This document shows, piece after piece, positions 21,939 through 49,790 of a DNA stretch of 64,000 nt. The translations under genes were made by a program, and so were the position numbers. The DNA comes from Carcharhinus amblyrhynchos (lineage: Eukaryota). A model generated the notes under the pieces. It was not told where the DNA came from. It did not search any database and saw only the letters and a list, made by a program, of their open reading frames with translations. The stretch is from contig OZ336875.1 of NCBI GenBank assembly GCA_965287045.1, positions 30,442,001-30,506,000 of the forward strand, written 5' to 3'. Each line of letters opens with the position of its first letter. Within the stretch, counting starts at the first letter, position 1.

Positions 21939-21946
21939 AGTAACAG

Positions 21947-22910: not shown

Positions 22911-22959
22911 TGATAATTTGAGCAACTTGGGTTGATACTGTCTGGAGTTTAGAAGAATG

Positions 22960-27279: not shown

Positions 27280-27625
27280 TCTCCAATTTTCTCCTCACAC
27301 CCAGCTCTCTTAAAGGGGTGACTCTGATAAGATGAAATACCTCACCATCCTTCACATGTGCTTCCCTGTAGTGACTGTCAGCAAGTTATCTGGCAATGCA
27401 GAGCGTTAGCCCTGTCCCCAATCTTGCTCTCTCCAGATGGCCACACCTATGTGATGGTAGTTACCGGATAGTAATTAGCAGCAGGAACCTTGGCTCATTT
27501 TTCTGCCCCACTTAATCTGTGCTGAGGCCAATTGTAACACTCTTACTGTCACCCCAGTGCACTGGGCACAAATCAGATATTAAACTTGGCACCTCCAGCA
27601 GCTCAGTAGCACACTGCGCAGTGCT
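27280..27625 (-). mobile_element. Ancient SINE, unnamed family (other copies near 5780-5940, 36890-37125, 49290-49945, 51350-51500, 60420-61080)
   Basis: Shared diverged motifs gcaggaaccttggctcatttt and tgaggccaattgta. Confidence 0.55.
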
Positions 27626-27765
27626 TTTCCAACTGGTCTGCAACTACTTTGCTGAGGTGGAGACTCTGCATAATACAGAATTATTGCATCAATGTTCTGT
27701 TTATGAAGTGAGTGAGAGCTCCTATTGATTGCTGAATATGGTCTGGAACTGGATTTTTGAATTAT

Positions 27766-28960
27766 TGGGCGGAGTCTTCCCATAGTTTGTCAGTTTCAGC
27801 GAGAAAACTGTGTGTAGCTTTTCAGCTGCAGTTTTCTCTGCACATTCTCTGGCACTCAGTGCACAGAAAATCTGGGGCATGTTTTGTGGCATCACTCTAG
27901 TGGGGTAGTGCCTGACAGAGTGGGCAAGGTGCCATCCCTAAAGGGCACCCTTGATTTGCTTTAAAAGATAACTCCCCCTCCCCGCCACAGACATAGAGGA
28001 GCCACCCATGAGACGACCCTCCCCTCCCACCCCACCATAGGCATCAGAGCATCCCAGAAGGGGACAGTGCCAGGGGCAGTGCTAGGGCACTGCCCAGGAA
28101 TAAGAACATAAGAACATAAGAAATAGGAGCAGGAGTAGGCCATCTGGCCCTTCGAGCCTGCCCCGCCATTCAATAAGATCATGGCTGATCTGTCGTGGCT
28201 CAGTTCCACTTTCCCGCCCTCTCCCCATAACCCTTAATCCCCTCTCTTATCAATAACCCATCAACCCGCTTCTTAAAAATATTTAGCGAGGCAGCCTCCA
28301 CCACTTCAACGGGCAGAGAATTCCAGAGATTCACCACCCTTTGAGTGAAGAAGTTCCTCCTCAACTCCGTTCTAAACCGCCTCCCCCTTATCTTGAGGCT
28401 GTGCCCCCTAGTCCTATTATCCTTTCTGAGCGGGAAGAGTCTCTCCACCTCTATCCTATCCATCCCATTCATCATCTTATACGTCTCAATGAGATCTCCC
28501 CTCATTCTTCTAAACTCTAACGAGTGCAAGCCTAGTTTATTCAGCCTCTCCTCATAGCTCAACCCCCTCAACTCCGGTATCAGCCTAGTAAACCTCCTCT
28601 GCACTCCCCTTGGGGGCTAGGCTTAACTTAGTGTCCCCAGCAAGTTTTCCTTGACAGCTTTAAGCTTTGCAGATGTTGTCAACTTCGGTGACGTGCCATC
28701 ACTTCAGCGAGGGGGGAGTTTCCTACTCTGGCGGGGGTGGGAGAGGAAGGTCATATGACAGGGGAGCCCTTTAAATACGTTTAAATTTATTTAAATGTAT
28801 TTAAGGGAGGTTATCATTCAGAATGGAATCAGCGAGGGGCGGGGGAAAATCTAGGAAAGAGATCTCCCCAGTGGGATTCTCATTCCCGCGGTGTCACGGG
28901 ATTTGCCGCTGGCGTAGCCACTTTACCTCACAGTGAGCTCCGTTTGAAAATCCCCCCATA
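27766..28960. mobile_element. GC-rich Harbinger-like element interrupted by CR1
   Basis: Ends gggcggagtcttcc ... gaaaatcccccc; GC-rich interior split by the CR1 at 28100-28608. Confidence 0.55.
28100..28608 (-). mobile_element. Young 5'-truncated CR1 (HER1-like) LINE
   Basis: Uninterrupted 134-aa ORF2 C-terminus (QRRFTRLIPEL...RGDLIETYK...TRGHSLK...FFTQRVVNLWNSLP) and (TTCTTATG)n tail. Confidence 0.95.
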
Positions 28961-30318
28961 GGGTGAGAAATTCCTGCTGCTAGTCAACGGGCATTTTGCC
29001 AGGCTGCCAAATTTCCCTTCCCATCTGTGGGTTACCTGTTGTGGGTGGGGGATCAGATAACCCTGATCATAATTTACCAAAGTGGATCAGCTCTTTAAAG
29101 CTTATTGTAGCGAACGACCACCATCGCAGACAGTGAAATGATCCTTTACACACAGAAGATATGCACAGTCAATGACAGAATGAACAGAAAGTAGAATCAA
29201 ATGATAGAATTATCCCACAGTTGAGGATTGCTGATGAAATAATAACAACAGAAGCACAAAACATAGATCATTAATTGATGGCAGCAGAGACCCGCCCTCT
29301 CCACTTAATTCACTCCCAGGTAGTTTTATATGTATAAAAGTTGGGCCCTTGTCAATAGGGTTCTGGTGTAATTGACTTGAGAGTCATGTATTATGACTAA
29401 CTGTGATATTAGACCTGAAAGTTTACAGTAAAACTGACAGCTAATATAGTGCTGTGAATTCTTGCACAATGTAATGGTTCACACATTGTTCTATCTCTAC
29501 TTTACGAGACGGTTAAAATATGCTAAAAATGCAAGGCAATTTTTTTAATAGTCCTCAGTGTCACGTAAAAACACAGTTTTTACGTTCAACAAGAAGCACT
29601 GCTCCGGCATTACAATACTGTTTTATAAAAAAACAAAATCTCTTTCTAAGTCGTAAAACAGTGTGGGAAAATTAAGCACAGGAATTGTTAGGTGCATGAA
29701 CAGAAAATGTAATGAAGCCCAAACAGTAAAAACGCAAAAGTTGTAAATCGACGCGTACATATTAAATTTTTCAAAATTGGTAAAGGCATAACTCAGAGAG
29801 TTCGAGGTACACTCAAGAGGGTCAGGTAATGGGATAAACAGCAGCAGTTTCCCAATTGCACTTTTGCCACCTCGCACCATGATTGTGTTGACAGCTGTAA
29901 CACACTCCCAGCCATCTGTTATTCTCTATGGCCTGCAAATGACACAGTGTGATATTAGGATGTGCGTTTGTATGAAATTACTTTGTCTGCTACTTTGACG
30001 GAGCCATTAACCTGGTTATCTTAAATGGTTTAAGACCTTTATTAATCTAAGTCTTTCCATTAACCAAATTCATCAGCTGTTTATCATGCAGTACAATTTT
30101 TGCACTTATGTGTTATGTGTGAAAAAAAAAAGTGATGTGGTTAAAAGAAAAGGGACGAGGCTAGTGTCTGGTTGACATATCTGTGCAGTGCCAAGAGCTG
30201 GGCCCAGATGTAGGCATGTGAGTCAAGGTTGGATATTTTCAGAACATGCTGCAGGTGATGGGTGTTGGCTAGGAGAGCTGAGAAGGAGTGGCCCATGTGC
30301 ACTAACTCAATGTATAAT

Positions 30319-32875
30319 GAACATAGAACATAGAACAGTACAGCACAGTGCAGGCCCTTTGGCTCTTGATGTTGTGCCGAGCTTTGTCTGAAACCAAGAT
30401 CAAGCTATCCCACTCCTTATCATTCTGGTGTGCTCCATGTGCCTATCCAATAACCGCTTGAAAGTTCCTAAAGTGTCCGGCTCCATTATCACAGCAGGCA
30501 GTCCATTCCACACCCCAACCACTCTCTGAGTAAAGAACCTACCTTGGGCATCCCTTCTATGTCTCCCACCATGAACCTTATAGTTATGCCGCCTAGTAAC
30601 TACTATATCCACCCAAGGAAATAGTCTCTGAACATCCACTCTATCTATCCCCCTCATCTTCTTATAAACCTCTATTAAGTCACCTCTCATCCTTCTCTGC
30701 TCTAAAAAGAAAAGCCGTAGCTCCCTCAACCTTTCCTCATAAGACCTCCCTTCCAAACCAGGCAGCATCCTTGTAAATTTCCTCTGCACTCTCTCCAATG
30801 CTTCCACATTCTTTTTATAGTGAGGTGACCAGAACTACACACAATATTCCAAATGTGGTCTTACCAAGATCCTGTACAATTGCAGCATAACCCCACAGCT
30901 CTTCAACTCAAACCCTCTGTTAATAAATGCTAACACACTATAGGCTTTCTTCATGGCTCTACCCACTCGAGTGGCAATCGTCAGAGATCTGTGGGTATGA
31001 ACCCCAGATCGCTCTGTTCCTCCACATTCACCAGAACTCTGTGGTTGACCCTGTAATCTGCATTCAAATTTGTCCTACCCAAATGAATCATCGTGCACTT
31101 ATTAGGGTTAAATGCCATCTGCCTCTTTTCTGCCCAGCTCTGCATCCTATCAATGTCTCATTGCAGCCTACAGCAGCCCTCCACCTAATCCACTACTCCA
31201 CCAATCTTGGTGTCATCAGCAAATTTACTGACCCACCTTTCAGCCCCCTCCTCCAAGTCATTGATAAAAATTACAAATAGCAGAGGACCCAGCACTGATC
31301 CCTGTGGTACACTGCTGATAACTGGTCTCCAGTCTGAAAAATTTCCATCCACCACCACCCTCGGTCTTCTATGAGATAGCCAGTTACTTATCCAATCGGC
31401 CAAATTTCCCTCTATCCCACACCTCCTTACTTTCTTCATGAGCCTACCATGGGGAACCTTATCAAACACCTTACTAAAATCCATGTACACAACATAACTG
31501 CTCTACCTTCATCTACACACTTACTTATCTCCTCAAAGAATTCAATCAAATTTGTGACGCAAGACTTATCCTTCACAAATCCATGCTGACTATCCCGGAT
31601 TAAGATGTATCTTTCCAAATGCTCATAAATCCTGTCCCTCGGGACCTTTTCCATTAACTTACTGACCACTGAAGTAAGACCAACGGGCCTATAATTCCCA
31701 GGGTCATTCCTATTTCCTTTCGAACAAAGGAACAACGTTCCTTATAAGATGATAAAAGGGATGGATAGGGTAGAGGTGGAGAGGTTCTTCCCGCTCAGAA
31801 AGGACAGTAGGACTAGAGGGCACAGCCTCAAGATAAGTGGGGGGCAGTTTAGAACGGAGTTGAGGAGGAACTTCTTCACTCAAAGGGTGGTGAATCTCTG
31901 GAATTCTCTGCCCGTTGAAGTGGTGGAGGCTACCTCGCTAAATATATTTAAGACGCGGGTAGATAGGTTTTTGGTAGGCAAGGGGATTAAGGGTTATGGG
32001 GAGAAAGCGGGAAAGTGGAACTGATCCACTTCAGATCAGCCATGATCTTATTGAATGGTGGGGCAGGCTCGAAGGGCTAGATGGCCTACTCCTGCTCCTT
32101 TTTCTTATGTTTCTTATGTTTCTTATTCACCACTCTCCAGTCCTCTGGCACTATCCCTGTGGACAGTGAGGACTGAAAGATCAAAGCCAAAGGCTCTACA
32201 ATCTCATCCCTTGCCTCCCAAAGAATCCTAGGATATATCCCATCTGGCCCAGGGACTTATCGACCCTCAGGTTTTTCAAAATTGCTAATACATCTTCCTT
32301 CAGAACATCTACCTCCTCCAGCCTATCGGCCTGTATCACACTTTCATCCTCAGAAATATGGCCCTCTCCTTGGTAAACACTGGAGAAAAGTATTCATTCA
32401 TTACCTCTCCGATCTCTTCTGACTGCATGCACAAGTTTCCACTACTATCCTTGATAGGCCCTAACCTCACTCTGGTCATTCTTTTATTTCTCACATAAGA
32501 GTAAAAAGCCTTGGGGTTTTCCTTGATCTGACCCACCAAGGGTTTCTCATGCCTCCTCCTAGCTCTCCTAAGCCCTTTTTTTAGTTCATTCCTTGCTACT
32601 TTGTAACACTCAAGCGACCCAACTGAACCTTGTTTTCTCATCCTTACATGTGATTCCTTTTTCCGCTTGACAGGACATTCAACCTCTTTTGTGAACCATG
32701 GTTCCCTCACTCAGCCATTTCCTCCCTGCCTTACAGGAACATACCTATCAAGGACACACAGTATTTGTTCCTTGAACAAGCTCCACCTTTCATTTGTCCC
32801 TTTCCCTGACAGTGTCTGTTCCCATCTTACGCTCCCTAATTCTTGCCTAATTGCATCTTAATTACCCCTCCCCCA
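30319..32875 (-). mobile_element. CR1 LINE ORF2 remnant (second family), interrupted by a nested CR1
   Basis: [47 protein letters not shown]; (TTCTATG)n tail at 30319. Confidence 0.95.
31741..32126 (+). mobile_element. Young CR1 3' end nested in the opposite orientation
   Basis: 91-aa ORF very similar to the 28200-28604 ORF; (TTTCTTATG)n tail; host CR1 resumes at about 32127. Confidence 0.95.
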
Positions 32876-33121
32876 AAGGTAATGAAGAGGTTGTAACAAG
32901 CATAACATGTGTATTATGATTGAGAATGGGTTCTCATGGGAAAAATCTTACTTTCTGAAGGAATAAGTGTCAAATAATGTGGAATTAATACGGGCTAAAA
33001 TTATTTTGAGTAAATTCACAATAAAACATATTTTAACAGGAGTCAGAACCAGCTTGCAAAACAACATAGTTAACTCCCTTCACAACAATGTGAATTTACT
33101 GATAAGAAGTACACATACCTA

Positions 33122-33335
33122 GGCTGGAAGTTTCTCATTGCTCATGCCAGCGGGATCTTCTGGTCCAGTTTCGTCTGGCTTACTGCACCCCTGCTGTGGC
33201 TTTCCTGGCAATGTGGGGTGGAGGCAATAGGAAATCCCATTAACAATGATGAGACCAGAAGATCCCATTGCTGGCCAACAGCAGGCCAACTCCCACCACG
33301 GAATTACAGCATGGGGAGGCCAGAGAATCCAGCCC
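33122..33335. mobile_element. PIF/Harbinger-like MITE
   Basis: TIR-like ends ggctggaagtttctc / gagaatccagccc. Confidence 0.65.
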
Positions 33336-33369
33336 ATAGAAAATGATAATCTATGGTACTTGCCATTAC

Positions 33370-33588
33370 GTGGAGATGCCGGTGTTGGACTGGGGTAAAC
33401 ACAGTAAGAAGTCTGACAACACCAGGTTTAAGTCCAACCGATTTATTTGATAGTAAACTCACAAGCTTTCAGGTCTGAGGCCAGAACTCTCCATTCACCT
33501 GACGAAGGGACAAACCCCGAAAGCTTGTGAGTTTACTATCAAATAAATCAGTTGGACTTAAACCTGGTGTTGTCAGACTTCATACTAC
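33370..33588. mobile_element. Penelope-like fold-back remnant
   Basis: 68-bp inverted arms (33403-33470 and 33519-33586, 2 mismatches); 12-bp TSD acttgccattac at 33358-33369 and 33589-33600. Confidence 0.85.
33495..33530 (+). ncRNA. Minimal type-I hammerhead ribozyme motif (intact core)
   Basis: TCAC-CTGACGA-A-GGG(ACAAAC)CCC-GAAA-GC-TT-GTGA: stem I TCAC/GTGA, CUGANGA box, stem II, GAAA, palindromic AGCU stem III and UH. Confidence 0.8.
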
Positions 33589-36500
33589 ACTTGCCATTAC
33601 ACCAGCATATTAGCATATAATGCTACCCCTGATAATAAAAACAACAACGTTATAGAATAATACTTGGCCTAAGGTCCTAATACCTTGCTGGAACCTGCAC
33701 CTTGACTAAGTAAATTGACTAACATGACTGTTACCTAAGGTCGAGTTTTCAAGAATAAATTCCAAATAAAATTTCTTACTAATTGAACGGGCCTTCTCAC
33801 TAAAATAGGCGGTCCTTTCACCAAATATGTGACATTAATTAGAGATGGTCTATTATTGATCAAATGAACATCTTCTGTGCAACCATTAATTAAAGAACCC
33901 TAAAATTCATTATAAATATCTCAACCTAAACTCAAATAATTTCAAATTTGTTAGACTTTTTAGATTGGCTTCAGATCCATTCAGAACCTAATGAGTGTCA
34001 CACCCTTAGGGATTAAGGTTATCTTACTTTAATATTTGATGGATATCCCTACTTCTTATTAAAAATCTTATATCCGTAACAAATAAAGGCTAAAGATTGA
34101 TTTCTCTCACTGAAATTAGAATTAGTTATCGTTTCATTTCTTTTTGGTTTTTCTCTAGTGTTGCGATTTATGCTTTTCGCGTAACGACCAAGTTGCATGT
34201 TTTCTTATGTAAGAAATTTGTATGTACCTAAAGTTTAAATTGTCGCATTTAATCTTCTGCATCAACGACTCTTGAACCCGAGTCCTGTCCCCTTATGGTG
34301 GGGGAGTATTTATGGAGGGGTTTCACAAGGACCCTTTTAATATCCTGCAAAACCATAGACTATCTAAGCACCTACTTAAAAATAAGGTTATCAGGATAAT
34401 CTAGGCTGATTCCCTTCCTGTGGGTGGAGGCTGTTTAGACTCAGTGGACCCAGTTACATGTTCTTGAGTCTGAGTTGGGGGGAGTTAATCAGGAGGGATG
34501 CCTGATCTTGAATAGCTCTAAAAAATGAGACAAGTATTGTAGGACACTGCAGAGTGGAGGTCCAGTTCTAAACTAAGGTTGTAGGAGCAGACTATAATAA
34601 AGCCTGTTTGGAAGCATGATAATGGACAAGCGAGTGCGGGTAGCTGACAGAGGAGAGAGCACAGCAGCATCTGGATCAACCTATCACCAACCCAAATACG
34701 GTGGAAACAATAGTCATTATCATTCATCTTACACTTAATATGAATTTTCTGACAATACCACATAAAGAATCATACAAGTGCTGGCACTTTGATAGAGATG
34801 TCCTATTAAACTCCAGCCCTTGCTCTGTCATAGCCCTGCAAATTATCCACGTGTCCTCATGGTAGGGTTGCTTTGAGATATATGGATTTTATTTCCTTGG
34901 ATGGATAACATTTGATTAAGAGGAGCTGACTGTCCCAACTACGTAGTGACCAGGGCTATCAGTCAGTGAGGCTGAACATTTCTGCACTTTTATGACATTG
35001 ATGGGGGAAAAAAAAACACCATTTGCACTCATCACAGTGCTGGCTGCTGGAGTAGTGACAGCGCTGCTGCCCTGCCAGCCCTTGCACTTGTCAGCTCCAG
35101 AGAGCAGCAGAGAAGCAGTTTGTTCTTGACATCAGACAGCCCCTCTGCTGGGCCCTGGTTTCATGTTACATTAAGTATTAGTGCTGTTCTTTCAGGAGCC
35201 ATTATGCTGTGACATCAAAGATCAACTTGCGGGGCAGTCCTGGGTTAGTCCCTGATTTCAGCTAGAACTTTCCAGGCATGAAATGAAATGTACATGATTA
35301 ACCTAAGGTTGGGAGTGCGATGGAGTTCTGATCTGGATTTTTTCTTCAGAGAGAGAGAAGATGATTTCCATTTAATTATATACATTTGAGCGAAATCCTA
35401 AGGAATCAGCGTGTTTACTGAATTATTGAGCTTTGTGGTGCTTTTTAGTTGCAGTTGGTGATGACTTTGAGAATGGAGTAATTTAAGGCTGTACTTACTT
35501 AAACGGATTCTTGCTGGTGACAAGTCTACAGGTGCTGCAAAGCTCAAAATAAAAGGCATTTCTGCCAATGTGACCAACGACCCCAATGTCTCTCAACAAC
35601 AATGTAAGTGTGCAGTGAACTTGCTATTGGAGGTGCAAGTGGGCATGTTTCTTAGCTCTGGTGCACTAACCAACAAAGCATGCCTTATGCTTACCATTTT
35701 TAGGCCTGTATTTTTATGATCGTATGTCCATGCAGACCATTGGGGAAGGCATTGCAATGCAGTGAATTTAAACCAACTGGACATGCCCGCAACCTTTCAT
35801 GTAGCCATAGAATCCATAGCACAATATGACTGAGGAGGCTTCTCACAGAGAATCTGTTTCACAGGACCATTTCTGAGAACTGAAGTTCACTTGGCTTATA
35901 GTTGTTGGACCCTTTTAGGTCAGCTCAGTTTTGCTTTTTGCTGCATTTTGCAGGCTACTGCAGACTATTAGGCCTTTGGCATTATCAACTGGAACTTAAG
36001 AGGACCGCCTAAGCTGTTCTGCTTCTCTCCCTGTGAATCAATCACAAAGGAAGTCTGTGACAAGCTACCTGTGATGTTTTGTCCAGCATGCAATCAACAG
36101 AGCATTTGTGCTGCCTTATGACATTAATACAAAGATTATTAATATCTGTATTTAATAACACCACATATTATGTCCTCATTTTATCAAATTGCATGCCATA
36201 CCACAATGGTGCACTTACAAGCATCATTAAATCCACTAGCATCCAGCAAAACCAAGTGAAATGTTGCTTTCCCTTGCTGCTACCGTGACACATTCCAGCA
36301 GGTTTCTTTTTGATGCGAAATGTTCTTGTTGGTGACCCAGACTAGAGGAACTGGCACCCCAAGAGGAATGTAAAAGTTGATTATGATACTAAATTAAATA
36401 TAACATTTCATCACAATGTCTATTCAGGATCATTACGCACTTTTTTCATTAATATTATTTATAATGTCTATATCTCAGGAATAAAAATGCCGATTAGAGG

Positions 36501-36889
36501 GTGGGAGTCAGTCATAGGAACAATTGCTTTGATTACACAGCCACAGTGAATGACTGGCAAATTGGAGACTCAGGCAAGGCTTTTATTTGTGATATGTATA
36601 ATTTTGCTTTTGCGTGTCTGTGGGACATGTGACATTGTTTCACATCAGTAAATATGCAGTGCCTATCTCTTAATCTATCTCTTGAAAGCTACCAAGTGTG
36701 GTATTTAAAATAAGTTTGGGGCCAGCATTTTGTTTTCTTTCCTCATCAGATGATAAGAACCGATTGTTTTTAGGACATGCTGTAACATCCAGTAATGCCT
36801 CATGACCAATTTGGGGAATACAGTTTAAGCAGAGAGTCTACTTTTGTATTTGGATTATTAGAACACTGCCCAATGGCTCTGTGAGGCCA

Positions 36890-37125
36890 TTGGAAGCTAC
36901 AACACCAGACCATGAAAAACAGGAAGGCACCAGGATCAATGAGTTAGCTGATCTCAGCTGTAGGGATGGAAGAGTGACTATAATTGGTCTCAGTAGTTCA
37001 TGCTAGGTTGGAGAAAATCAATCTGTGTTTCAAATCACTACCTGTGTTGGGTGAGAATAGGATTGGGTTTGGCTTTGATGTCGTATCTAGTTAAACATTC
37101 TACTAGCAGTCACCATCTAAAAGAG
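36890..37125 (+). mobile_element. Ancient SINE copy (family of 27280-27625)
   Basis: gagttagctgatctcagc...taattggtctcagt...gggtgagaataggattggg. Confidence 0.55.
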
Positions 37126-37477
37126 GAGCGAAGAGCATTAAAAAAGGAAATGTGTTCAGTTGTCCTCTTCAATCCTTGGTTTGGTTTTCAGTCAAATTTC
37201 TATTGGATAGGCATTAGCTTCAGCAACAACATTTCCTATCATTATGATTTATCTTTCTATTCTGTCATGGGATGTGAACACCATTGGCAAGATCAGCACC
37301 TATTGTCTGTCCTTTTGAGAAGTTGATAATAATCTACCTTTTGGGCCACCACAATCCCTGTGGTGAAGGTGCACTCCGCAGCGAGGGAAGGAGTTCCAGG
37401 AATCTGAGGCACGAACTGTGAAGGAGCAGTAATAAAATTTCAAGTTGTGATTATGCACGACTTCTAGGGGAACTTGG

Positions 37478-37658
37478 GTGGCACTGCTGCCTCACAGCGC
37501 CAAAAACCTAGGTTCAATTCTGACCTGGGTGACTGTCTGTGGGGAGTTTGCGCAGTCTTCCTGTGTCTGCATGGATTTTTGCCGGTTCTCTGGTTTCTTC
37601 CCTCAGTCCAAAGACGTACAGGTTAGATGGATTGATCATCCTTCATTACCCCTTAGAG

Positions 37659-37741
<83 letters not shown>

Positions 37742-37889
37742 TATGCTTGATTGCTTGATGTGGTGTAATGCCCCTCAAACTATAAGCCCCTGGGGACAGA
37801 CCAGTGACCTGTTCCAGGAATAATCATCTACGGAAACGGACGAAAGCCTGACTTATGCACTATCGGGCCAGAGAAGGTTGAGAGAGAGA
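37478..37889 (+). mobile_element. Composite SINE: HE1-like head, (GT)n, distinct tail, (GA)n
   Basis: The whole unit is bounded by the 11-bp direct repeat ggggaacttgg (37467-37477 and 37890-37900). Confidence 0.75.
37662..37738. repeat. (GT)n microsatellite, about 38 units
   Basis: Seen directly. Confidence 0.98.
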
Positions 37890-39053
37890 GGGGAACTTGG
37901 AAGTGGTCATCTTCCTGTGTACCCGCTGCATTGTTCATCTAGGGAGTAGAGATTGCAGATTTGGGAAGTGCTGTCGAAGAAGACTTGGCAAGTTGCTGCA
38001 GCATATTTTATAGATGACCCACACTGTTGTCATAATGCATTGGTCTTGGAGGGAGTGGATGTTTAAAGTGTTGGTTGGGATGCTAATGAAGTGGGTTGCT
38101 TTGTCCGGATGGTATTGAGCTTCTTGAGTACTGTTGGAGATCCACTTTGTAGAAAAATGGAGATTATCCCATCAAAATCCTGACTTGTGCATGTAGACGG
38201 TGAACAGACTCTCAAGTCAGGAGTCGCTTGCCACCAAATTCCCAGCTTCTAACCTGTCCTTGTATCTACAGTATTCATTTAGCTATTCTAGTTTCTGGTC
38301 AGAGGTGAGCCAGGATATTGATGGTGGGGGATTTGGTGATGGGGTGCCATTGAATACCAAGGGGAAGCATTTAGAACTGCTGAGTTGAGATTATTCTGGT
38401 GAACATTGGAGTCTTTTCATGTGGTGGGGGTTGCGGGGGGGGATGTTGGGGATGGAGCAAAGGATTGACATCATCCAGCTTGCTCTGACAGTTGGTGGTC
38501 TTTGAGAAATCCATCACTTGTGCCTTTCTGACCCACGAAATGGGAAGCAGCCTTTGAAGAAAAGGGAGAATTCATAAAAATAAATTCCACAGCCATTGAA
38601 CCTGCTAACCCATGTACCTGCCTAATGAATAACAGCTTTAACCTAATCAATATGACCATAAAAATAGGGCTGTTCTGCGGGAGTGCTTCATAGTCTCAAT
38701 GGGAATTGGCATGGGAAATGTAGGAAGACAAGTCACAAATATTGTATTACAATGCAGCACAAACTCAGGCTCTAACATGATGCAATAATGTTGGAGGAAG
38801 TAACACACAGGACTCCATGACCCCTACTCCCACCTTCCAAAGACTGTGCCTGCTGTCCAGTTAATGAGTAGAAATAGATTAAAGTACTTGTTGTGCTAAT
38901 CATACAGAGCTCTGGTTCATTCTGCAGGGTTAGGGTCAAGCACTGCTGTAATATGTGTTAATGAGATTTGATTGGATCCCTATGTTGGCCTATAAAAGCA
39001 ATTTGAAAAATTAGTAAAAGTCAACTATGTCAAATACTTCTTTTTATTCCACC

Positions 39054-39097
39054 CTACTGACAAAATGCTGTTTTTTTTCCCTTATTACAGGTAAGTG
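39054..39097 (+). other. Candidate recursive splice site (3' splice site fused to 5' splice site)
   Basis: ctactgac (branch point) aaaatgctg ttttttttcccttattaCAG|GTAAGTg, in unique sequence. Confidence 0.65.
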
Positions 39098-40106
39098 AAA
39101 TGTCTCCTGTGTTGTCCTGACTGCTATCTAACCCTCCTCACCCCAAACCACTAGCTGAACTTGGGAGAAATATCTCCCAATGGCATAATTGTAGTGAAAA
39201 TTTGAAAACTTGTCTTTCAAGTTTTCTTTTCAAAAACAGCTGGCACCGGCTGGGGAATTAAAAAAAAAAGAAACAAGAGTGAAGTTTGTTTAATTCCTTG
39301 TCATTGGGAAAGTATTGGATCCCAGAGCTGCATTGTATTTAGTAGTTGCTGGGATGAGTGGGGTGAAAGTTGCTTTTATGGACTCATTTATCCCCCCCTC
39401 TAAACTTCTGTGGCATCGGCTTTGCCACAAATACTTTCTCAGTGAAATCAGCCCCATTACAATAAAATGCTTTATTGTGCTTTTGGAAAGCGTCATGCAC
39501 AGGAAATCACAAATATAAATTCAGAATGCACAATTCAAGGTCTGTAGAGTGTATATCACTTAGACAGTCATTAGTCAGGCCAAAAATGGAATTTGTCTGG
39601 AATAACTCTCTTTTTTGGAGCTTGTAACTGTTGGAATAATTGGTAACTGCAATTGTGTGTTGGAACATTAATTAAATTAGACTGGTGTACAGTAGCTGGT
39701 GTGTGCTTTTTTGTTTGTTGAAATCCCCAAAAGAAAGGCTCTGTTAACCCTGCATTCAAGGCATCAGCTTTTTATATAAAATTAATATTTTACTAGGACA
39801 GCCTTAAAATCATTAGTTAATCTTAGTGACCTGTTAGCGAACTTCCAAATTTGGTGTGACGATGCATAGTCTATTTGTGAAGCTATAAAATAATAAGACA
39901 TTTCTATGTGACTACACAACACAAGTTATTAAAGTTTAATTTACTTTTTCATGCCAGAGTACACAGCAATGCAACCTCTGCGTGCCATGTGTTTTATCAT
40001 AAAGACATTAAAGTAGCATCTCTAGAGCTCCACAAGGTACTGTCTCCAGCTGTTAGGTAATAATTACCCAAGATTTACCCAAAAAATAACAACTAACATG
40101 CAAATC

Positions 40107-40530
40107 CTAGATGAGAAAGAAGAGATGCCTTTGAAAAAGAAAGATAGAGGGAAAAAAATCAGAAATTAAGAGACAGAAAGAGATACAAACAGTGAGAGGG
40201 GCAGTAAGATATGGCCAGAATAAAACAGAATAAAACATGCTGAGTATAAAAATGTTACAGTGAATAGGGCAAATAGTGAGGTAGATAACATAAGACACAG
40301 AAAGATGGAAGGAGACATTGAAAGTAAGACAAAGATATAGAAACAGACAGAAACAGAGAGTAATACAGGCAGCAGGGTATAGAGTGCAAGACAGAAAAAG
40401 ATACTGGAAAATAGATAATGAGGCAGACGGAGAGTAAGACTCAAACAGGCAGAAAACAGACTGAGACAGTGAGATAGTGGAATAGAAATTAGAAACAGAA
40501 AGGGACCGGAGTGATGAGTTAGAATAGAGT
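40107..40530. repeat. Purine-rich (AG/ACAG) decayed low-complexity tract
   Basis: Strong A/G bias with agacag and agaaa units; explains the spurious minus-strand ORFs. Confidence 0.8.
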
Positions 40531-42532
40531 ACATCTTGAAGCGTTGGCTCCACCTTGATCTTCTTTTTCCATTATCAGCCCACTCCTGAGCTCAGTATTA
40601 ATGTTGTTATCAGCACAATCCTCAGAATGCAGGCTCAAAACAAATGTGTTGAGAATAAGCACTTAGTTTGCGGAAGGGTCATATCGCGGTTCTAACCAAC
40701 ATTATAATATTAAGCTTACAAAACCTTAAAGTGAGGCAACAATGGCTGTTCCATGGATGACCACTATTAGGAGGTGCTCAGGTATGATCGACCATTAGAA
40801 AACTTAGACTCCACGACATTCCTTCATTTACTTCAAATCTTACATCTCAGAATCAACGTCAAGATGTCCTATACATTTTTAAGTCATGGAACAAACCTCG
40901 CAAGACATATGTGGCTGACCACACCCCGGGGCCAATCCAATATGTATTAGACCATTTCAGTGAAAGTTTATTTTCCGCACTGACGGTAAATATTCTTTTT
41001 GAAAGATATGGACAGTCTTAACCAAGTTTCCAATGGACATGGAACTAATGTACAGAATCATCTGCACTTAGGTTCAGGCTGTTTTTGGAAATCACACTCA
41101 TGCAATCATGATCACTTTCCTGAGGTTATGGTGAAGGTATGTTGCTGGAATTAAGGTATATAACTTGGATAAAGTAAACTTTGTGTCTAATATGTGAGCG
41201 CTCAATGGCTGCATTGAGTACTAAAAACAGAAATGTATTGCAATAGTAGCACCGAGACCCTAATCTTGATAAGCACAAATTCTACCCTGCAGTATTTTAT
41301 TTTGACTTTCCCTTCATTAGTAATAGTCTTATCACTCACAGCACCATTGCTCATGGTAGTTACACTCATTTGTTTGCTTCGAGCAGTAAATTCCTTCCAT
41401 AGAAAACAAATATACAGAGCATAGCAATGCACTCAGTTGTGCTTGTTGTGAAGTTTATGTTTATATTTCCTCGTCAATGCCAGACAAAACTATTAGATCA
41501 ACGGGTGCAATTCAGACGTCTTTACAAGGGCATCTTTGAAGTAACTGGGCACTGATACAAAAGAGAGGAGGGGGAGAGGATGTGTTTGAACCAGGAAATG
41601 ATTGGGACCCCAAGAGATGGCTGCTCCAGGCAAACCATATATAGCCTCAAAACGTGAAGTTAGCAAGCTGGTTTACTTATTCCGCACCCTTCCATACGTG
41701 GCGGTATCCCATAAAAATTAACATATCCAGCTTTTATAATACATTTCTAAAATATTTCATACATATACGACATCATTTTCTTTGAGCTCAAGGTTACATT
41801 GCAGGAGTGCAGGTGGTCGGGAAGAGTTGCACTGCATAGACTTACATACGAGCATAGGAACATGTGAGTTAGGAGAAGAATTGGGCCACTTGTATCACTA
41901 AATATTTCCATGGCAGCGAATTACTAGTGATCATTTTGAAGAGAGCTTGAGGGTTTCAATACGTTTCTGCAGAATATCATTATTCTGATGCATTCATAGA
42001 ATGGATTCCCCTTGCCCTTCTTGCAGCAGCACCACATTTTTTTGGGTTCCATAGTTGAGTATAATTGGGGTTTAGTAAACTCTGTTAAAGACTTTCACTT
42101 GGATCAATCTTAACCTCACATTTATTGATGCTGGAGTGATTGACTTACATATGCCTTTCCATATCTTAGAACACAAATCAATAGCAAGGTCTTTAGCCTA
42201 TACCTGACAAAGTGTCTTCACACAAGTGTCAAATCTTTCCCCAATGAAAAATTTATAGAGCAGTGAAACAAAGTGCTTACCCTTCTGATTAGTGATGGAT
42301 AGTTTTTATAATTCTTTCAAAATAGGTGGGCAATTTAAATAACCTCTTCCATGCTTTTTTTTTATAGCAGCACTCAACTCAAGATCTATGATCATATAAT
42401 TTAATTTTTGCCTGATATGTTTCAAGAGTGCAAGTAAATTCTCAATTAACCCTATTTCTGCCCACTCTTTTCAAATTACAGCCTTGCTCTGTGGCAAAAT
42501 GAAGATTATGAATATTGTGCCTTATAAACAAT

Positions 42533-42668
42533 GGCTGGAATTCTCTGGTTTTGCTCACCCTGCTACTGCTGCCAGCGAAAATGGAGAATTTGGCACGCAG
42601 TCAAATCTCCACTCACAGCAGCGGGAGCGGAGAATCCCAGCTGCAGGTGGGATTGGAGAATTCTGACT
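42533..42668. mobile_element. PIF/Harbinger-like MITE (family of 59953-60088)
   Basis: ggctggaattctc ... gagaattctgact flanked by AAT; interior matches the reverse complement of 59953-60088. Confidence 0.75.
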
Positions 42669-42669
42669 A

Positions 42670-43062
42670 ATATGTCCAGGGCTTCAGCATATAATCTAGG
42701 CAGACATTCTAATGCTGTAGTGAGGGAGTACTGTATTATTGAAAATGTCATCCTTTGGGTGGTATTTTTGGCCAATTCTTTCCAGTGATCCAAGATTCTA
42801 TGGTACTATTCAAAGTTTTCAAAGATGCCCCAGTGCCCTGAACAACATTCTTTCCTTGATCGATGCTTCCAAAAATAATTAACCATGCGGTTAATCATTC
42901 ATTGTTATAAATAGAATGTTAGTACATTCACAATGGCTGTCACATATGCCTCCTTGACAACAGCCAATAGATTGCAAAGTGATTAATTAATTGCATGAGA
43001 AATACATTGAGATACTTATGAGAGATGTAATAAGATGCTATGTAAATATTGTTCATTTTTCT
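42670..43062 (+). mobile_element. Diverged Deu-domain SINE
   Basis: taatctaggcagacattc...gtgagggagtactg...gatgctatgtaaat. Confidence 0.55.
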
Positions 43063-43332
43063 TTGAAAAATGCTCATGGCTATAACCAGTGATGCAAAAT
43101 GCTGCACTGTACAGCCAATTAATGCTTGGCAAAAGATGAATGATGCCATAGCATTAAGAGACAAAGCTTGGAATAAACACCAGTTTCCCAGCAAAAGGGC
43201 CAACTATGTTGTTCCTCCTACTACTGGGTGGGTGAAGTCTTCACAGAAAAGTGATTATTGCTAACATAATACTTGATGTTTATATGAGCAGAGCAATGCC
43301 CTAAACTGGAGTTTTTGCATGCAAAAGATTGA

Positions 43333-43588
43333 AAACTTATTTATTACTGTCACAAGCAGGCTTACAATAACACTGCAATGAAGTTACTGTGAAAATCCCC
43401 TACTCGCTACACTCCTGTGCCTGTTTGGAAATATTGAGGGAGAGTTTAACATGGTCAATGCACCTAACTAGCACATCTTTCTGACTGTTGGAGGAAATGA
43501 GAGCACCTGGAGGAAACCCAGGCAGACATAAGGAGAACGTGCAGACTCCACACAGACAGTGACCCAAACTGGGAATCAAATCCGGATC
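43333..43588 (-). mobile_element. HE1-like SINE, alternative tail
   Basis: Reverse complement of the 19201 family. Confidence 0.9.
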
Positions 43589-44846
43589 AAGGGCCATTTT
43601 GCAATTGCAGTGCAGGCAACATGGTACGCCAGAATAGGTGCTCAGAGTGTGCATGGCCATTATCATCACAGCATCATTAAATATTGTTGCTGGCATGAGA
43701 AAGGAGAAGAAGGAAACTTGGATTTTACACCTTGTTTTCAAGCAGTTAACATTTGCACAGAAGACATCAGTAAGGCCATTTAAGGGAAGGAACATGTCTC
43801 TGGTTGGAAGCCCAGTGTTCTAGCACTGTTGTTACTGACAGCAACCTTGAAACTTGCATGTTTACATGGAAAGAATCACTCAAATTCAAATTTGGCTATA
43901 CATCTTAAACAGTGACAATACATTGACTTATGAGTTAACTAAGTTAGCAGATTGTCAGATGTGGAATGAAAAACCCTCAAAATGTTAGCCAAACAAAGCT
44001 GTGAGGTAGCAGCTGGCTCTTTGTCTAATATCTAACAGCAAAGTACTGTAGTACATTTCCTTTGCAGGTTTCAAAATATGTACATTTCCTATCAAATAAC
44101 CTCTGCAAAAATAACACTTTGCAAACTGCTTTCCGTGAATGCTATGAAGAGGAGTTGTAATTTTTAAGTGCACAGAATATCTCTTTATTGGCAGTATTCT
44201 GTGGAATAAACCAAAATGCCTTCCCTCTGGTCTGAGGTAGATTTTATTCCCCTCTCCTCAGGATTATTTTTCAAAGTCAAGTCTCATTGAGATTCAGCTT
44301 CATATTTTGTTAGTTTTGTACGTTCAAAATAGTCGAAGCTAATGGTATAAACTCTAGCTCGGGACATACAAGAAACCCTCTCCAATTCAGATTCTGGTTT
44401 AGTCCGGAATAAATTTCATTAAAAGCCAGATTGAAAATGTGTCATCACAGATAAAGTTACAGCCTAATCCCCAGTCTCCTTACTCAGACCTTGCCACAAG
44501 AAAAATCATCAGATACCATGCAATGAAAATAAGCAGGTGATTAACAACCTCAGTGGAAATAAAAATCAGTCGAGATGTAAAACAGACAGACTTCCCTATC
44601 TACCCATCTTCCAGTGCTGCATAAAGTCAGAATTAACTTTCCACATTTGGAATGTGTGGGATCAAGCTAACACTGAGACATCAAGAGGTTTATCATCCAT
44701 TCTGCTGGTACCCTCCATTAATGACAATGGAGTCAGTTTAATAATTTTACGGCACTGTTGGTAGCAATACTCAACTGGTGCAGAGGGAGGTGAGAGGAGG
44801 ACAACTTCCTTCTGAACCTGTTCCTGAGCCTGGCCACATGTGTAAT

Positions 44847-44934
44847 ATGATGTGGAGATGCAGGCTTTGGACAGGGGTAAACACAGTAAGAAGTCTCACA
44901 ACACCAGGTTAAAGTCCAACAGGTTTATTTGGTA
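44847..44934. mobile_element. Truncated Penelope-like pLTR fragment
   Basis: atgatgtggagatg...cagtaagaagtctcacaacaccaggttaaagtccaacaggtttatttggta; stops before the ribozyme. Confidence 0.85.
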
Positions 44935-45164
44935 CCATAATACAAACGTGTAATGAACAGCGGGTGACTGAGGAGGTTCTGTATCAATAGGCCAGGGATA
45001 ATACCGCTACACCATTGCCTCCCCTAGTTTGACTTGCAGTAATGTTCTGCATTTATCTTTCCTGTATTGTCTATTATCTCTATTTCTTAATTCATCTCAC
45101 CCCTCTAACTCTTATCAATCTTGGTGATTTCTCGCACTATGGTATTTGGCCTCTCGCTTAGTTT

Positions 45165-45312
45165 AGAAACATAAAAACATAGAAGATAGGAGTGGAAGGT
45201 CCTTCGAGCCTGCTCCGTCATTCATCACGTTCATGACTGAGCGTCTAACTCAAAAGCCTAATCCTACTTTCTCCCTATAACTTTTGATCCCATTCGCCAC
45301 AAATGCTATATC
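45165..45312 (-). mobile_element. CR1 3' tail fragment
   Basis: agaaacataaaaacatagaagataggag...ccttcgagcctgctccg. Confidence 0.75.
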
Positions 45313-45509
45313 AATAAACTATGACCAGCTTCATTAGCCCAGCTTGGAAGGTCAAGGAATTTGGCTTTGTCAAAAGAAGCAAGTAGTTTGTGGAGGTCTA
45401 GCTGCCTGCTTTAATGCAACACAACTGTTTTGCATATGGTCACATCCCTGAGAGCAGAAAAAAGCTGGAAACCAGCTTCCAAAAGATAATACAGAGCTGG
45501 GAAACATTA

Positions 45510-45666
45510 AACAGTATATTTTTGACCAATAAGGGAATTAAGGGTTATGGGGAGCAGGTGGGTAAGTGGAACTGAACTGCTATCAGATCAGCCGTGATCT
45601 TATTGAATGATGGGGCAGGCTCGAGGGGCTGGATGGCCTACTCTTGCTCCTATTTCGTATGTTCTT
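45510..45666 (+). mobile_element. CR1 3' end fragment
   Basis: aagggaattaagggttatgggga...gatggcctactcttgctcctatttcgtatgttctta. Confidence 0.9.
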
Positions 45667-46305
45667 AAATTGAAACTGGAATCGCTACGATCATTCTAAT
45701 AAAAGACAGAAAGTAAACAAATAAGTCATTAAAGTAACCCAGCATGCTTTGGTATAATGCTTCTCCTGGTTTTAACTCTTGATTTTGATACAAGGGGACA
45801 GTTTTATCTTCTACCTTGCTATAAAGAAGGCCAGTGCTTCCTGCAATGGCAAGTCTGGGAGTGCACTGCATGGGAAGATTATAGGTGTCCTACAAGCCCA
45901 AGGTATGGCACTTCAGAGCATCAGATATTTGTGCCACAATATGACGAGGACAATATATTAATGGGTTAACAATTTGACTGGATAGTTTGCCATCTAAATC
46001 CTGACCTGTCAGGAAGTTCAAACCCATACCAGGTGGAAACGATGGAGACACAGTGGGTGTATAGTATCTGTGCTATTCGTTTTGATTCCAGATAAATATC
46101 CCCTAGTCATACGATAAACAAGCTGGTGACTAGCAATTGTGAAAATTCTTACTTTGGATTTTCAGGAGTTATTTTTGGATAGAAAGTGAAGTATTGTAGA
46201 ACAGAATCATCATATTACGTCAGGTGCAGGAAACTAGTCAAAGGGAGCAAAATGGAACATCGTAGTAGGAGGATGGCCACTGTTCCCTGTAGCCAAGAGC
46301 ACAAA

Positions 46306-46592
46306 AAGTTTAATGTTTGTTTGTTAGTCACAAGTAGGCTTACATTAACAGTGCAATGAAATTACAGTGAAAATCACCTAGTTGCCACCTGTTCAGGTAC
46401 TCTGAGGGAGAGCCTGGCCAATGCAGCTAACCATGTTTTTCAGACTGTGGGAGGAAATCGGAGCACCTGAGGAAACCCAGGCAGACACAGGGAGAATGTG
46501 CAGATTCCACACAGACAGTAATTCAAGCCAGGAATTGAACCTGGGTCCCTGGCACTGTGAGGCAACAGTGCTGATCACTATGGCATCGTGCC
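46306..46592 (-). mobile_element. HE1-like SINE, alternative tail
   Basis: Reverse complement of the 19201 family. Confidence 0.9.
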
Positions 46593-47356
46593 AGACATCA
46601 CCAGAGGAGTGGAGAGGATCCAACAACATAGATAAGACTAAGAAAGAGGTTCTACTGAGGGAGTATGAACAACGAGGTACTAAATTAAACAGCAGAATGA
46701 CAGAGGTAATAATCTCTCGTTATTACCAGAGCCACGAGCAAACTGGCAAAGGGTAATTTAAGATCAGAGAGTTAATACGTGGCTCAAAGATTGGTTTAGA
46801 AGAAATGGGTTTGAATTCATGGTCACCAATATGGACTAAATTGGATCTGTACCAATGGGACGGTCTTCACTTGAACTATGTTGGAACAAGAGTACTGGTG
46901 AATCATATAATTAGTGTTATAGAGAGGGTTTCAAACTATATAGTGGGGAGGATGTTTAGATGAAGGGAGATTTGGAAAGTTAACTAGAGAGGGCAAGACA
47001 TAGTGTACGGTAAAGACGCAGGTAATGAAAACCAGAGTGCGGCAGGAAAGCACAGCACAAACACAAGAGTGCACCAGCAAATAAGGTCAGGATAAGGAAA
47101 AATGCTAGATGCACAGAATTAAAGGCACTTTATCTGAATGTCTACCCCACATTCATATCAAGGTGGATGAATTCAAAGCACAAATAGAAATAAATGAGCA
47201 AAATGTAATAATCATTATAGGAACATGGCTGCAAAGCTACCACAATATTCCAGCGTATTTCAGAAGGAAAAGAAGAAAGTAAAAGGAAGTGGGGTAGAAG
47301 GAAATGTTAGGAAAGGAAAAGAAAATGAGATTTAAGATAAAGATGAAGAATTTCTT

Positions 47357-47482
47357 AGCCAGAATTTTACCGGCATGCTCATCCCAGAATCAGGGTGTGT
47401 GAGGCTCACAGAACGGAATTCTCTGCTGGCCTCGGGCAGGATTTTACAAGCCTCTCCCGTGTGAGGTCATAAAATACCGGCT
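47357..47482. mobile_element. PIF/Harbinger-like MITE (family of 22215)
   Basis: agccagaattttaccgg ... ataaaataccggct. Confidence 0.7.
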
Positions 47483-49489
47483 GATCTGTGAAAGGCTTGT
47501 TAGTCTTTAGAATTCCCTTCCACAGAGAACAGTTCAGGCTGGATCTTTGAATATATTTCAAGGCCGAGTTTGGAAGATTTTTGATTGACAAAGGCTTATG
47601 AGGAGCAGGCGGAAAAGTGGAGTTAAAGCCACAATTAGGTCTTACTGAATGAAAGAGCAGGCTCGAGGGTCTGAATGGCCGATCCCTGCTCCTATTTCTT
47701 ATGATCTGATTAGAAAAATGTGATGTGAGTTGCACTGGGTAGTTTGTGCATTTGAGGTGGTTTAAAGACATATCTGCAGGACATGTTTTCTATGAATGCA
47801 CAGCGTGAGTGCATTTCCCATGTTAGAAAGTGAAAGCTTTTTGTTATCCCACCTGTTGTGCCCAATTGGAACTGAACCCTGAATGCACACTCTGTGCAGC
47901 CTTCATAAATGACTGGTTACCTCAAGCTGATGGCTCTTGAAGAAGCACATGCCTGATCTTATTAGGAGTGGCACTTTTAAGGTTGCATTTCCAACTATTG
48001 ATAGAGAAAATGCTCTGAATTTGCGTAAAATTGCTCCAGATCATTGTGTGCTAAGGAGCTCCTGAGACTCTGCTGCTGGAACACATGGAGCTACTTCATT
48101 AGGAGAATCATTAATGGATATGTGTGCCACAGCACAGCCTTTTTAAGCAGCTGCTTTATGCTCCGAAACTGGCTAAATAAATACATTGAAGTCCCAAATG
48201 TGCCCTTGTCAATGGGAGATCTAAATGAATAAGCTAGAATGCTACTGAGTCGATCATTACATCTCACAAATAGGTAGAAAAAGGAATGCAAATATTTACC
48301 TCAGACTGCCCGCAGCCTGGCAGTGCACCTTATTAGCAGCATGAGCAACAAAAAGTACAGCAAAAAAAATACAATTTGCAAGTAACAGTTCAATGCAGTT
48401 AGAGCATTTAAGAAAATGAAATCCTTTGTAAAAATCTACACTTAGCAGTGAGACAATGTGAATAATCACAGTCACAAGACAAACTTTTTCCTGAGTCATC
48501 CTACTGGCCACCTTCACCTCACAGATCTCTAAAGAACTGAATAAGGCTTATTCTCTGCCAATGCTTTGTTGCCAGTTATTTTGTTTAAACTGTTATTCCA
48601 AGCACTCCACCTGTACTTCTAATTGAGGGTGCTGATGCAAAGATCATTAGTTTGGCCAATTTTTAATGAGGGAAGTTGACATGAAACAGTCCAGCAGCTT
48701 GTAAGTTGGATTTTATGTTAAAACGAAATTAATTCAAGCTAGAGACTCCTGGCAATTGCCAAATTTATTTTAAGACTTTTGGGGTTTTTTTTGCACTATT
48801 CCTCTTATCTGTCACCTTCTGCTGTCCCCTTCTCCCACTCGTCTCGTTTTGCCTCTTCGCTTCACTCCCCTTTGTTTCTTTTCATCTTTCATTTTCTCCT
48901 TTTCGAGTCGTCTCTCTGTATTGAATTATGTAGGACGTCAAAAACATTGAATGACAGCGACTTCAGAAAGCCCTCTCATCTTGTACCAGGTTGAAGCAAT
49001 TATACAAGTAAATCTCAGCCCACAAATGTCACAAATTGTAAAATGTTGATCTTTAGCCAAAACGTTGCTAATGAAGAATGGGAGAGTTATGTTTTAAAGT
49101 GATGCCAGAAAGTCATAAAAACATCAGAACCTGATCAGGTTAAAATAAGGACTAGAAATCAGCAGATGTTTTAATGGGTTTGAGAGTTTTACCACGTAGA
49201 GCATCCCTGCTACAGGTGATGTCATAAAGAAGTAAAAACATTTCAAGGTCCCCCAAACTGTCTAATTACTTTAAGAAAATCATGCTTAGTGTAGTAGCAG
49301 GTTGTACAGACCAGAAAATTCTTGATTCAATCTCCAGCTTATCTCAATTGGGGCAACAGTTGGGGTGCAACATTTGGCTTCAGTACAAATTAAAGAAACA
49401 AACAAAAGAGGAGTGAAGTGAAGAGGTAAAAACAGATCATCAGGACAAGGAGGCAGAAGATGCAATAAAAAAACTAACTCCTTTTTTTA

Positions 49490-49790
49490 CAAAGTTTGTT
49501 TATTAGTCACAAAGTAGGCTTATATTAATACTGCAATAAAGTAACCGTGAAACCATCACCACCCCCCCTCCCCCCTCCCAGGCACCTGTTCGGGTACACT
49601 GAGGGAGAATTTAGCATGAACAAAGCATGTCTTTCAAACTGTTGGAGGAAACCAGAGTACCTGGAGGAAATGCACATAGACAGAAGGAGAACGTGCAGAC
49701 TCTGCACAGACAGCGACCCAAGCCGGGAATCGAACCTGGGTTACTGGCGCTGTGAGGCAGCAGTGCTAACAACTGTGTGACCGTGTTGCC
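49490..49790 (-). mobile_element. HE1-like SINE inserted into an ancient SINE
   Basis: Reverse complement of the 19201 family; ancient SINE sequence on both flanks. Confidence 0.9.

What the first reader, a model, noticed from the sequence alone, without database searches (positions are those of the whole stretch)
39054..39097. Textbook recursive (ratchet) splice site
Seen: branch-point CTGAC (39057-39061), a T8C3 pyrimidine tract, CAG at 39088-39090 followed directly by the consensus donor GTAAGT, in unique sequence with no recognisable coding exon for tens of kb. Established: such sites occur in very long introns of a few vertebrate neuronal genes (e.g. CADM1, CADM2, ANK3, HS6ST3, ROBO2, PDE4D). 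Inference: the window lies in a long + strand intron removed stepwise; a shark example would indicate deep conservation. I found no strong downstream RS-exon donor and cannot name the gene.
Basis: partly seen in the sequence, partly recalled or inferred. Interest (0 to 1): 0.7.

Follow-up and report, generated by a model that had tools for sequence, protein, structure and literature searches.

The report
Cryptic splice motif in SOX6 intron
A textbook-looking fused "end-of-intron/start-of-intron" signal sits in the very long first intron of the shark SOX6 gene, but a relative lacks its key letters and no spliced read was seen, so it is likely a chance look-alike rather than a conserved stepping stone for cutting the intron out in pieces.

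Summary
The motif is exactly as described. It lies on the sense strand of a 129-199 kb 5' intron of SOX6, which I identified as the host. It is the strongest fused acceptor/donor site in 464 kb, and 2 of 150 simulated windows match it. Its letters fall within the range of 20 validated mouse recursive sites.

Conservation argues against function. Four of 4 close relatives keep CAG|GTAAG but carry C at +6, and keeping that core is expected by chance (P about 0.67). A more distant relative reads CAA|GTAAGA, losing the acceptor (one contig, depth 4.7). The motif is not depleted of changes. No joint appeared in 4 RNA-guessed runs, and SOX6 is absent from the human and mouse validated lists I could read.

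Best reading: an unconstrained cryptic site, at most occasionally used (0.62). Rivals: a true recursive site (0.18), or the ordinary donor of a 163-nt non-coding exon (0.15). One cDNA contig has 72 unseen letters that could hold a junction. The scan has flagged similar motifs in other genomes before. Interest is low.

The parts
1..64000 (+). Interior of the long 5' (first) intron of SOX6. Upstream first-exon donor at C6:30435089 (about 7 kb left of the window); next exons at about C6:30563920 and C6:30633810; first main coding exon at C6:30691404
   Evidence: exon structure transferred from annotated isoforms of other sharks
39057..39061 (+). Branch-point-like CTGAC; branch A 30 nt before the acceptor
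   Evidence: no change listed in 4 of 4 close relatives
39071..39083 (+). Pyrimidine run T8C3T2, variable in length between species
   Evidence: indels at 39071 (E, F) and 39078 (D), substitutions at 39079 and 39082; extra T's in G
39088..39090 (+). CAG, candidate acceptor; equally the last three bases of a consensus donor
   Evidence: kept in 4 of 4 runs; CAA in organism G
39091..39096 (+). GTAAGT donor hexamer; GTAAG kept in 5 of 5 relatives, +6 is C in four and A in one
   Evidence: best donor score of 10,968 GT in the intron
38928..39090 (+). Possible 163-nt non-coding exon or pseudo-exon that would use the site as an ordinary donor (rival reading)
   Evidence: acceptor score 5.3; no spliced contig seen
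39091..39539 (+). Putative RS-exon stretch; best downstream donor within 500 nt is weak (AAG|GTCTGT at 39540)
   Evidence: its first ~45 nt fail to align in G and H while the flanks align

Best explanation
A fused acceptor/donor motif lies on the sense strand of the long 5' intron of SOX6 and is likely an evolutionarily unconstrained cryptic site, not a conserved recursive splice site. Shown: the motif, the host gene and strand, and the differences in relatives. Inferred: a slipping T-tract happens to stand before CAG|GTAAG, and a recent change at +6 made it look perfect in this lineage. The 129-199 kb intron would normally be removed from first-exon donor to next-exon acceptor without needing this site. 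If the spliceosome uses it now and then, the rebuilt donor would let splicing finish with no trace in the mRNA (CTT|GTAAGT with the mapped first exon, identical to that exon's own donor). Such use would be harmless, so the site could be neither purged nor kept by selection.
For: Acceptor lost in organism G: the orthologous place reads CAA|GTAAGA (table 7). +6 is C in 4 of 4 runs from 4 studies. The 44-nt motif holds 4 of 19 substituted places (2.45 expected) and 2 of 7 indel places, so no depletion. In G the alignment breaks at 39078, and in H a contig's 102 letters before 39134 do not align, while flanks align at roughly 82-97% (tables 7-8; percentages my arithmetic). Keeping the 7 core letters in four close relatives has P about 0.67 without selection. 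The full pattern is not enriched over its reversed control, 11 vs 30. Vertebrate long introns show no or little sense-strand excess of such sites, ratios 0.9-1.5 (PMC2773006, passages). In human, 36,870 strong conserved AGGT sites gave 342 candidates and 16 saw-tooth sites (PMC6110456, passages); SOX6 has 124 rows in the putative table and none in the candidate or saw-tooth tables. Sox6 is not among 20 mouse sites or 22 RS-like exons (PMC8797253, S3 and S4 Figs).
Against: The site is the best in 464 kb by 3.8 bits and is on the sense strand; only 2 of 150 simulated windows match it. It meets the mouse criteria for motif, pyrimidine share (17 of 20), first-intron position, intron length and gene length. 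CTGAC and AG|GTAAG show no change in 4 of 4 close relatives, and AGGTAAGC occurs at one mouse site. The loss of AG rests on one contig of depth 4.7, which the tool warns may be an error. In run X20 one contig stops just before the acceptor and the next has 72 letters I could not see. The reversed control may itself be inflated by common words. The Markov and score figures use splice matrices recalled from memory, not MaxEntScan. Human and mouse lists come from few cell types.
Confidence: 0.62

Rival explanations
1. A working recursive splice site splits the SOX6 5' intron into about 46 kb and 83-153 kb. The first-exon donor is spliced to the AG at 39090, the joined exon end plus GTAAGT rebuilds a donor, and this is spliced on to the next exon. 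It would be either confined to one shark lineage or old and lost in organism G.
For: Sense strand, first intron, top score in 464 kb; matches the mouse site profile; a weak downstream donor is normal for half of the mouse sites; rebuilt donor AAG|GTAAGT scores 8.2 if the candidate first exon ending C6:30440109 is used; core unchanged in 4 of 4 close relatives; unexplained 72 letters of X20 record 7.
Against: AG absent in G; local divergence at and just after the site in G and H; no joints in 4 runs; no depletion of changes; SOX6 absent from validated lists read; validated sites are described as highly conserved. The mapped first exon rebuilds only a modest donor (2.6), whereas mouse rebuilt donors all score 8.3-11.8 on a different scale.
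Confidence: 0.18
2. The site is the ordinary 5' splice donor of a rarely included 163-nt non-coding 5'-UTR exon (38928-39090); the upstream pyrimidines are simply exon sequence.
For: GTAAG is kept in 5 of 5 relatives, including G, where only the acceptor role is lost. It is the best donor of the intron. An acceptor scoring 5.3 lies 163 nt upstream, against 4.3 for the real coding-exon acceptor. 38960-39053 has 2 substituted places against 5.2 expected, P=0.07. Human SOX6 has an annotated exon of about 52 nt at a roughly similar relative place.
Against: Contigs of X19, X20 and X22 run across 38928 unspliced, and X19 also across 39090; no joint or exon-like loose end was listed there. The constraint signal is not significant. 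No isoform N-terminus among 69 proteins mapped inside the window, though a non-coding exon would not show there.
Confidence: 0.15

Closest known systems
Vertebrate recursive splice sites with RS-exons (mouse set of 20: Lsamp, Cadm1, Cadm2, Pde4d, Opcml, Ank3, Ntm, Robo2, Cdh4, Kcnip1, Hs6st3, Hs6st2, Ncam1; PMC8797253, part 2 of 5 plus S3 and S4 Figs read; Sibley 2015 seen only as cited)
   Same: AG|GTAAGT (15 of 20 mouse sites), pyrimidine share 0.85 (mouse 0.60-1.00), first intron over 51 kb, gene over 294 kb, weak downstream donor (10 of 20).
   Different: Not conserved at the acceptor in one of five informative relatives; no junction or saw-tooth shown; the host is not on the lists read, and SOX6 is not brain-specific (own knowledge).
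Background RP-like motifs of vertebrate large introns (PMC2773006, passages; putative-site table of PMC6110456)
   Same: Strong fused motifs occur at about 0.1 per 100 kb on both strands of vertebrate long introns; under 1% of human putative sites had junction support.
   Different: This site scores near the top of that background, so its prior is higher than for an average AGGT.
Low-level, non-constitutive recursive splicing in human introns (PMC13622621, part 1 of 5 and passages; PMC6110456)
   Same: A strong AG|GT in a transcribed intron could be used occasionally with no effect on the mRNA.
   Different: Those sites rest on junction reads; none is shown here.

Membership tests
Vertebrate recursive splice site | Strong acceptor directly followed by a donor, AG|GTRAG | tested here: met
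   compared with 20 mouse sites
Vertebrate recursive splice site | Sense strand of a long first or second intron of a long gene | tested here: met
   SOX6, + strand, 129-199 kb intron, gene at least 608 kb; exon use transferred from other sharks' annotations
Vertebrate recursive splice site | High evolutionary conservation of the site | tested here: not met
   AG absent in G (one contig, depth 4.7); +6 differs in 5 of 5; 4 substituted places vs 2.45 expected; bony vertebrates could not be compared
Vertebrate recursive splice site | Reads joining the upstream exon to the site | tested here: inconclusive
   no joints in 4 RNA-guessed contig sets of distant relatives; 72 letters of X20 record 7 unseen
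Vertebrate recursive splice site | Saw-tooth coverage in total RNA | not testable with these tools
   only contigs, with one depth figure each
Vertebrate recursive splice site | RS-exon closed by a downstream donor | tested here: inconclusive
   best donor within 500 nt scores 1.5, and 25% of random intron stretches are as poor; half of the mouse sites also have weak ones
Vertebrate recursive splice site | Strong rebuilt donor after the first step | tested here: inconclusive
   2.6 with the mapped first exon, 8.2 with an unconfirmed candidate first exon
Non-coding cassette exon (5' UTR) | Acceptor and donor 50-300 nt apart | tested here: met
   38928-39090, scores 5.3 and 8.8
Non-coding cassette exon (5' UTR) | Inclusion in spliced RNA | tested here: inconclusive
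   only unspliced low-depth contigs seen

The most novel reading that the evidence does not exclude
A working recursive splice site in a cartilaginous fish, in SOX6, a gene on none of the validated lists I could read, present in one shark lineage and absent in another: a stepping stone caught being gained or lost.
Probability: 0.18. Interest if true: 0.45.

Novelty: not a real feature. Interest (0 to 1): 0.2.

Why it matters
If the best reading holds, it matters little: it is an example of the background of perfect-looking fused splice motifs in vertebrate long introns, and shows that motif quality alone does not identify recursive sites. If the site works, it would extend recursive splicing from bony vertebrates (zebrafish cadm2a, as cited in PMC5126111) to sharks and to a developmental transcription factor. 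It would also give a case of site turnover between related species. A search for 'recursive splicing' with 'shark' returned one unrelated review, and with 'SOX6' four papers on other subjects; I saw listings only. The by-products may be worth more: the SOX6 5' architecture matches the human one in spacing, and two other loci are stronger candidates.

Tried and rejected
No RNA holder listed for this stretch; not used as evidence.

Contig depth in X20 rises across the site (3.1, 7.3, 15.9), which looks like a saw-tooth. Rejected: contigs carry one depth figure each and cannot rank parts of a gene, and priming in the A-rich stretch beyond 40080 could give the same trend.

The first genome-wide pattern (483 matches, control 1,260) does not match this site because of the A at -7, and is dominated by one repeat; it was replaced. 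Forward counts include overlapping duplicates.

HS6ST-type host: no PF03567 match near C6:30-31 Mb. Rfam: 0 matches in 114 kb. A coding first exon ending at 39090: the nearby ATG is lost in 4 of 4 relatives (A39065G) and no N-terminus of 69 proteins mapped there.

Missing downstream donor as evidence against: dropped. The TA insertion in E and F as damage to the pyrimidine tract: dropped, as the last 20 nt stay 17 of 20 pyrimidine (my count).

Orthology with the human ~52-nt exon or the human putative site at chr11:16,581,242: only a rough positional match within about 4 kb, likely by chance with about 10 listed features in 136 kb; not testable.

Supplements of PMC10156609 gave no hit for SOX6 nor for control terms, so they are uninformative. 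The 84 mouse candidates are listed without gene names (control term Etl4 not found), so Sox6 is not excluded from them. Sibley 2015 and Duff 2015 are not held. Files 13-15 of PMC6110456, 34 of its 124 SOX6 rows, part 2 of its saw-tooth table (searched, not read) and the site list of PMC13622621 were not seen; the last could include SOX6.

The host of the C3:105609785 site was not found in 610 kb (only the first 210 kb had candidates scanned with Pfam).

Full report
OBSERVATION. The letters are as described: CTGAC 39057-39061, T8C3 39071-39081, CAG 39088-39090, GTAAGT 39091-39096. The stretch is single-copy in a genome search and carries no local repeat. With splice matrices recalled from memory, it is the best fused acceptor/donor in 464 kb on either strand: 13.7 bits, next 9.9 on the minus strand. 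Two of 150 simulated 64-kb windows hold one as good. Genome-wide, the full pattern with branch point has 11 matches against 30 for the reversed pattern. The motif is rare per window but not over-represented in the genome.

HOST GENE. The window is G000:C6:30442001-30506000. An exon scan of 200 kb on each side found a + strand exon at C6:30691405, whose 81 residues are 100% identical to annotated shark SOX-6 (P0001; 69 hits, 67 named SOX6 or SRY-box 6, 2 hypothetical). An HMG-box exon lies at C6:31043152 on +. A SMAP-family exon lies upstream on the minus strand, matching human synteny as I recall it. The N-termini of 5 of the 69 proteins map with 100% identity to an exon at C6:30435033-30435088 and continue in a 33-nt exon at C6:30633810; the junction gives the expected Leu codon. 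Other isoforms use exons near C6:30563920 and 30653540. The window therefore lies in a 5' intron of about 129 kb or 198.7 kb, with the site 46.0 kb from the mapped donor. A CpG-rich, repeat-free stretch at C6:30430500-30446000 marks the promoter region. A second candidate first-exon donor at C6:30440110 is read from sequence only. Human SOX6 introns starting at chr11:16,633,627 and 16,628,087 and ending at 16,497,935 have similar spacing (PMC6110456 S1 table).

FIT TO KNOWN SITES. Against 20 validated mouse sites (PMC8797253; part 2 of 5, passages, S3 and S4 Figs) the site fits on motif (AGGTAAGT in 15 of 20), pyrimidine share (17 of 20 nt; mouse 0.60-1.00), first-intron position and lengths. 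The best downstream donor within 500 nt is weak, 1.5 at 39540, but 10 of 20 mouse sites also have weak ones, so this is neutral. The rebuilt donor would be CTT|GTAAGT (2.6, identical to the mapped exon's own donor) or AAG|GTAAGT (8.2) with the candidate exon.

CONSERVATION. I laid 4 of the 18 DNA-type runs, one each for organisms C, D, E and F, on 38960-39300; the contigs of C and D have depth under 5. All four keep CTGAC and CAG|GTAAG, and all four have C at 39096, so the textbook sixth letter is private to the window's lineage. The T-tract varies in length. Of 19 substituted places in 341 nt, 4 fall in the 44-nt motif (2.45 expected), plus 2 of 7 indel places. At this distance the 7 core letters would stay unchanged with P about 0.67 anyway. 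Four runs guessed to be RNA, from more distant organisms G and H, were laid on 38300-40100. In G a contig aligns to 39078 and continues unspliced with CAA|GTAAGA (aligned by eye from the loose end): the acceptor is gone, GTAAG remains. This is one contig of depth 4.7 and could be an error, though its next letters agree with H's. In H the 102 letters before 39134 do not align; the 30 visible ones resemble 39099-39133. The stretch at and just after the site is thus the least alignable part of its neighbourhood, whereas validated sites are described as highly conserved.

RNA. No joint was listed in any of the four runs. One X20 contig begins at 39440 with a loose end that resembles a cDNA template-switch primer (resemblance recalled), which suggests + strand transcription of this intron in H. 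An open point cuts the other way. X20 record 6 stops near 39079, and record 7 has 72 unseen letters. Because such contigs normally share at most 30 letters, H either has an insertion of about 23 nt here, or record 6 is a variant branch, or record 7 begins with non-genomic sequence such as an upstream exon (my inference). I could not view these letters.

BASE RATES. Vertebrate large introns show sense-to-antisense ratios of 0.9-1.5 for such sites, against 21.7 in the fly (PMC2773006, passages). In human, 36,870 putative sites gave 342 with junction reads and 16 with saw-tooth (PMC6110456, passages). SOX6 appears only in the putative table (files 1-12 searched, file 10 cut when stored). In mouse cortex under 0.06% of long introns show recursion, and Sox6 is not among the 20 sites or 22 RS-like exons. 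A 2026 preprint reports 3,022 human sites; SOX6 is not in its main text and its list was not seen. Of the 10 other full-pattern matches in this genome, one lies in a repeat, one looks like an ordinary exon end, one is sense-strand about 106 kb before the first exon I found of an UNC5-family gene, one has no recognisable exon in 610 kb, and six were examined only within 5 kb.

MECHANISM AND VERDICT. Shown: motif, host, strand, and variation in relatives. Inferred: the motif is an unconstrained cryptic site. A slipping T-tract in front of CAG|GTAAG, polished by a recent change at +6, sits in an intron that is normally removed without it; occasional use would rebuild a donor and leave no trace (0.62). 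A working recursive site, lineage-limited or lost in G, remains possible (0.18). So does an ordinary donor of a 163-nt non-coding exon, which fits G better because GTAAG survives in 5 of 5 relatives (0.15). These odds are my judgement. It looks like a vertebrate recursive site but fails the conservation test and lacks junction evidence, so I do not file it as a member. The scan has noted similar motifs in other genomes (unchecked notes) and nothing near this place.

Noticed in passing
G000:C31:5045909 (L050:5000, +): Full-pattern fused site (score 13.4) on the sense strand about 106 kb before the first exon found of an UNC5-family gene (C31:5152354; Pfam Unc5_NetrinR_N), with downstream donors at +226 and +289. 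A candidate at least as good as the SOX6 site; the upstream first exon and conservation were not checked.
   Followed up: partly
G000:C3:105609785 (L043, - strand): Strongest score among the 11 full-pattern matches (17.6), no repeat hit, long pure pyrimidine tract; no recognisable exon in 610 kb around it, so a giant intron or a gene desert. Host unnamed.
   Followed up: partly
G000:C6:30430500-30446000 (L040, L041, window 1-4000): Repeat-free CpG-rich SOX6 upstream promoter region; a first exon whose 19 encoded residues are identical in two other sharks, and a second candidate first exon ending at C6:30440109. Spacing of the 5' exons is about 0.95 of the human spacing.
   Followed up: partly
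window 39440 (run X20, record 8): A loose end resembling a cDNA template-switch primer (recalled) marks a + strand cDNA start inside the intron, probably primed at the A-rich stretch beyond 40080.
   Followed up: no
window 38924-38933 in organism G: An insertion and a deletion would give G an AG|GTTAG arrangement at the upstream acceptor 38927, 163 nt before the lost site (table 4; one contig, depth 4.7).
   Followed up: no
genome-wide (C6 region): A common repeat family carries a fused acceptor/donor-like motif (CCTTCRTCAG|GTRAGT) and accounts for many of the 483 pattern matches.
   Followed up: no
human chr11:16,588,873-16,588,925 and 16,581,242 (PMC6110456 S1 table): An annotated exon of about 52 nt and a putative site with PhastCons 1 lie within about 4 kb of the scaled position of the shark site; orthology untested.
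   Followed up: no
G000:C5:88931718 (L045): Full-pattern match that looks like the normal end of a 156-nt open exon with a strong acceptor (9.5); no Pfam hit.
   Followed up: partly
window 7079-9056, 28071-28616, 30403-32710: Fragments of LINE-like ORFs and many copies of a ~300-nt short repeat; family names not tested.
   Followed up: no
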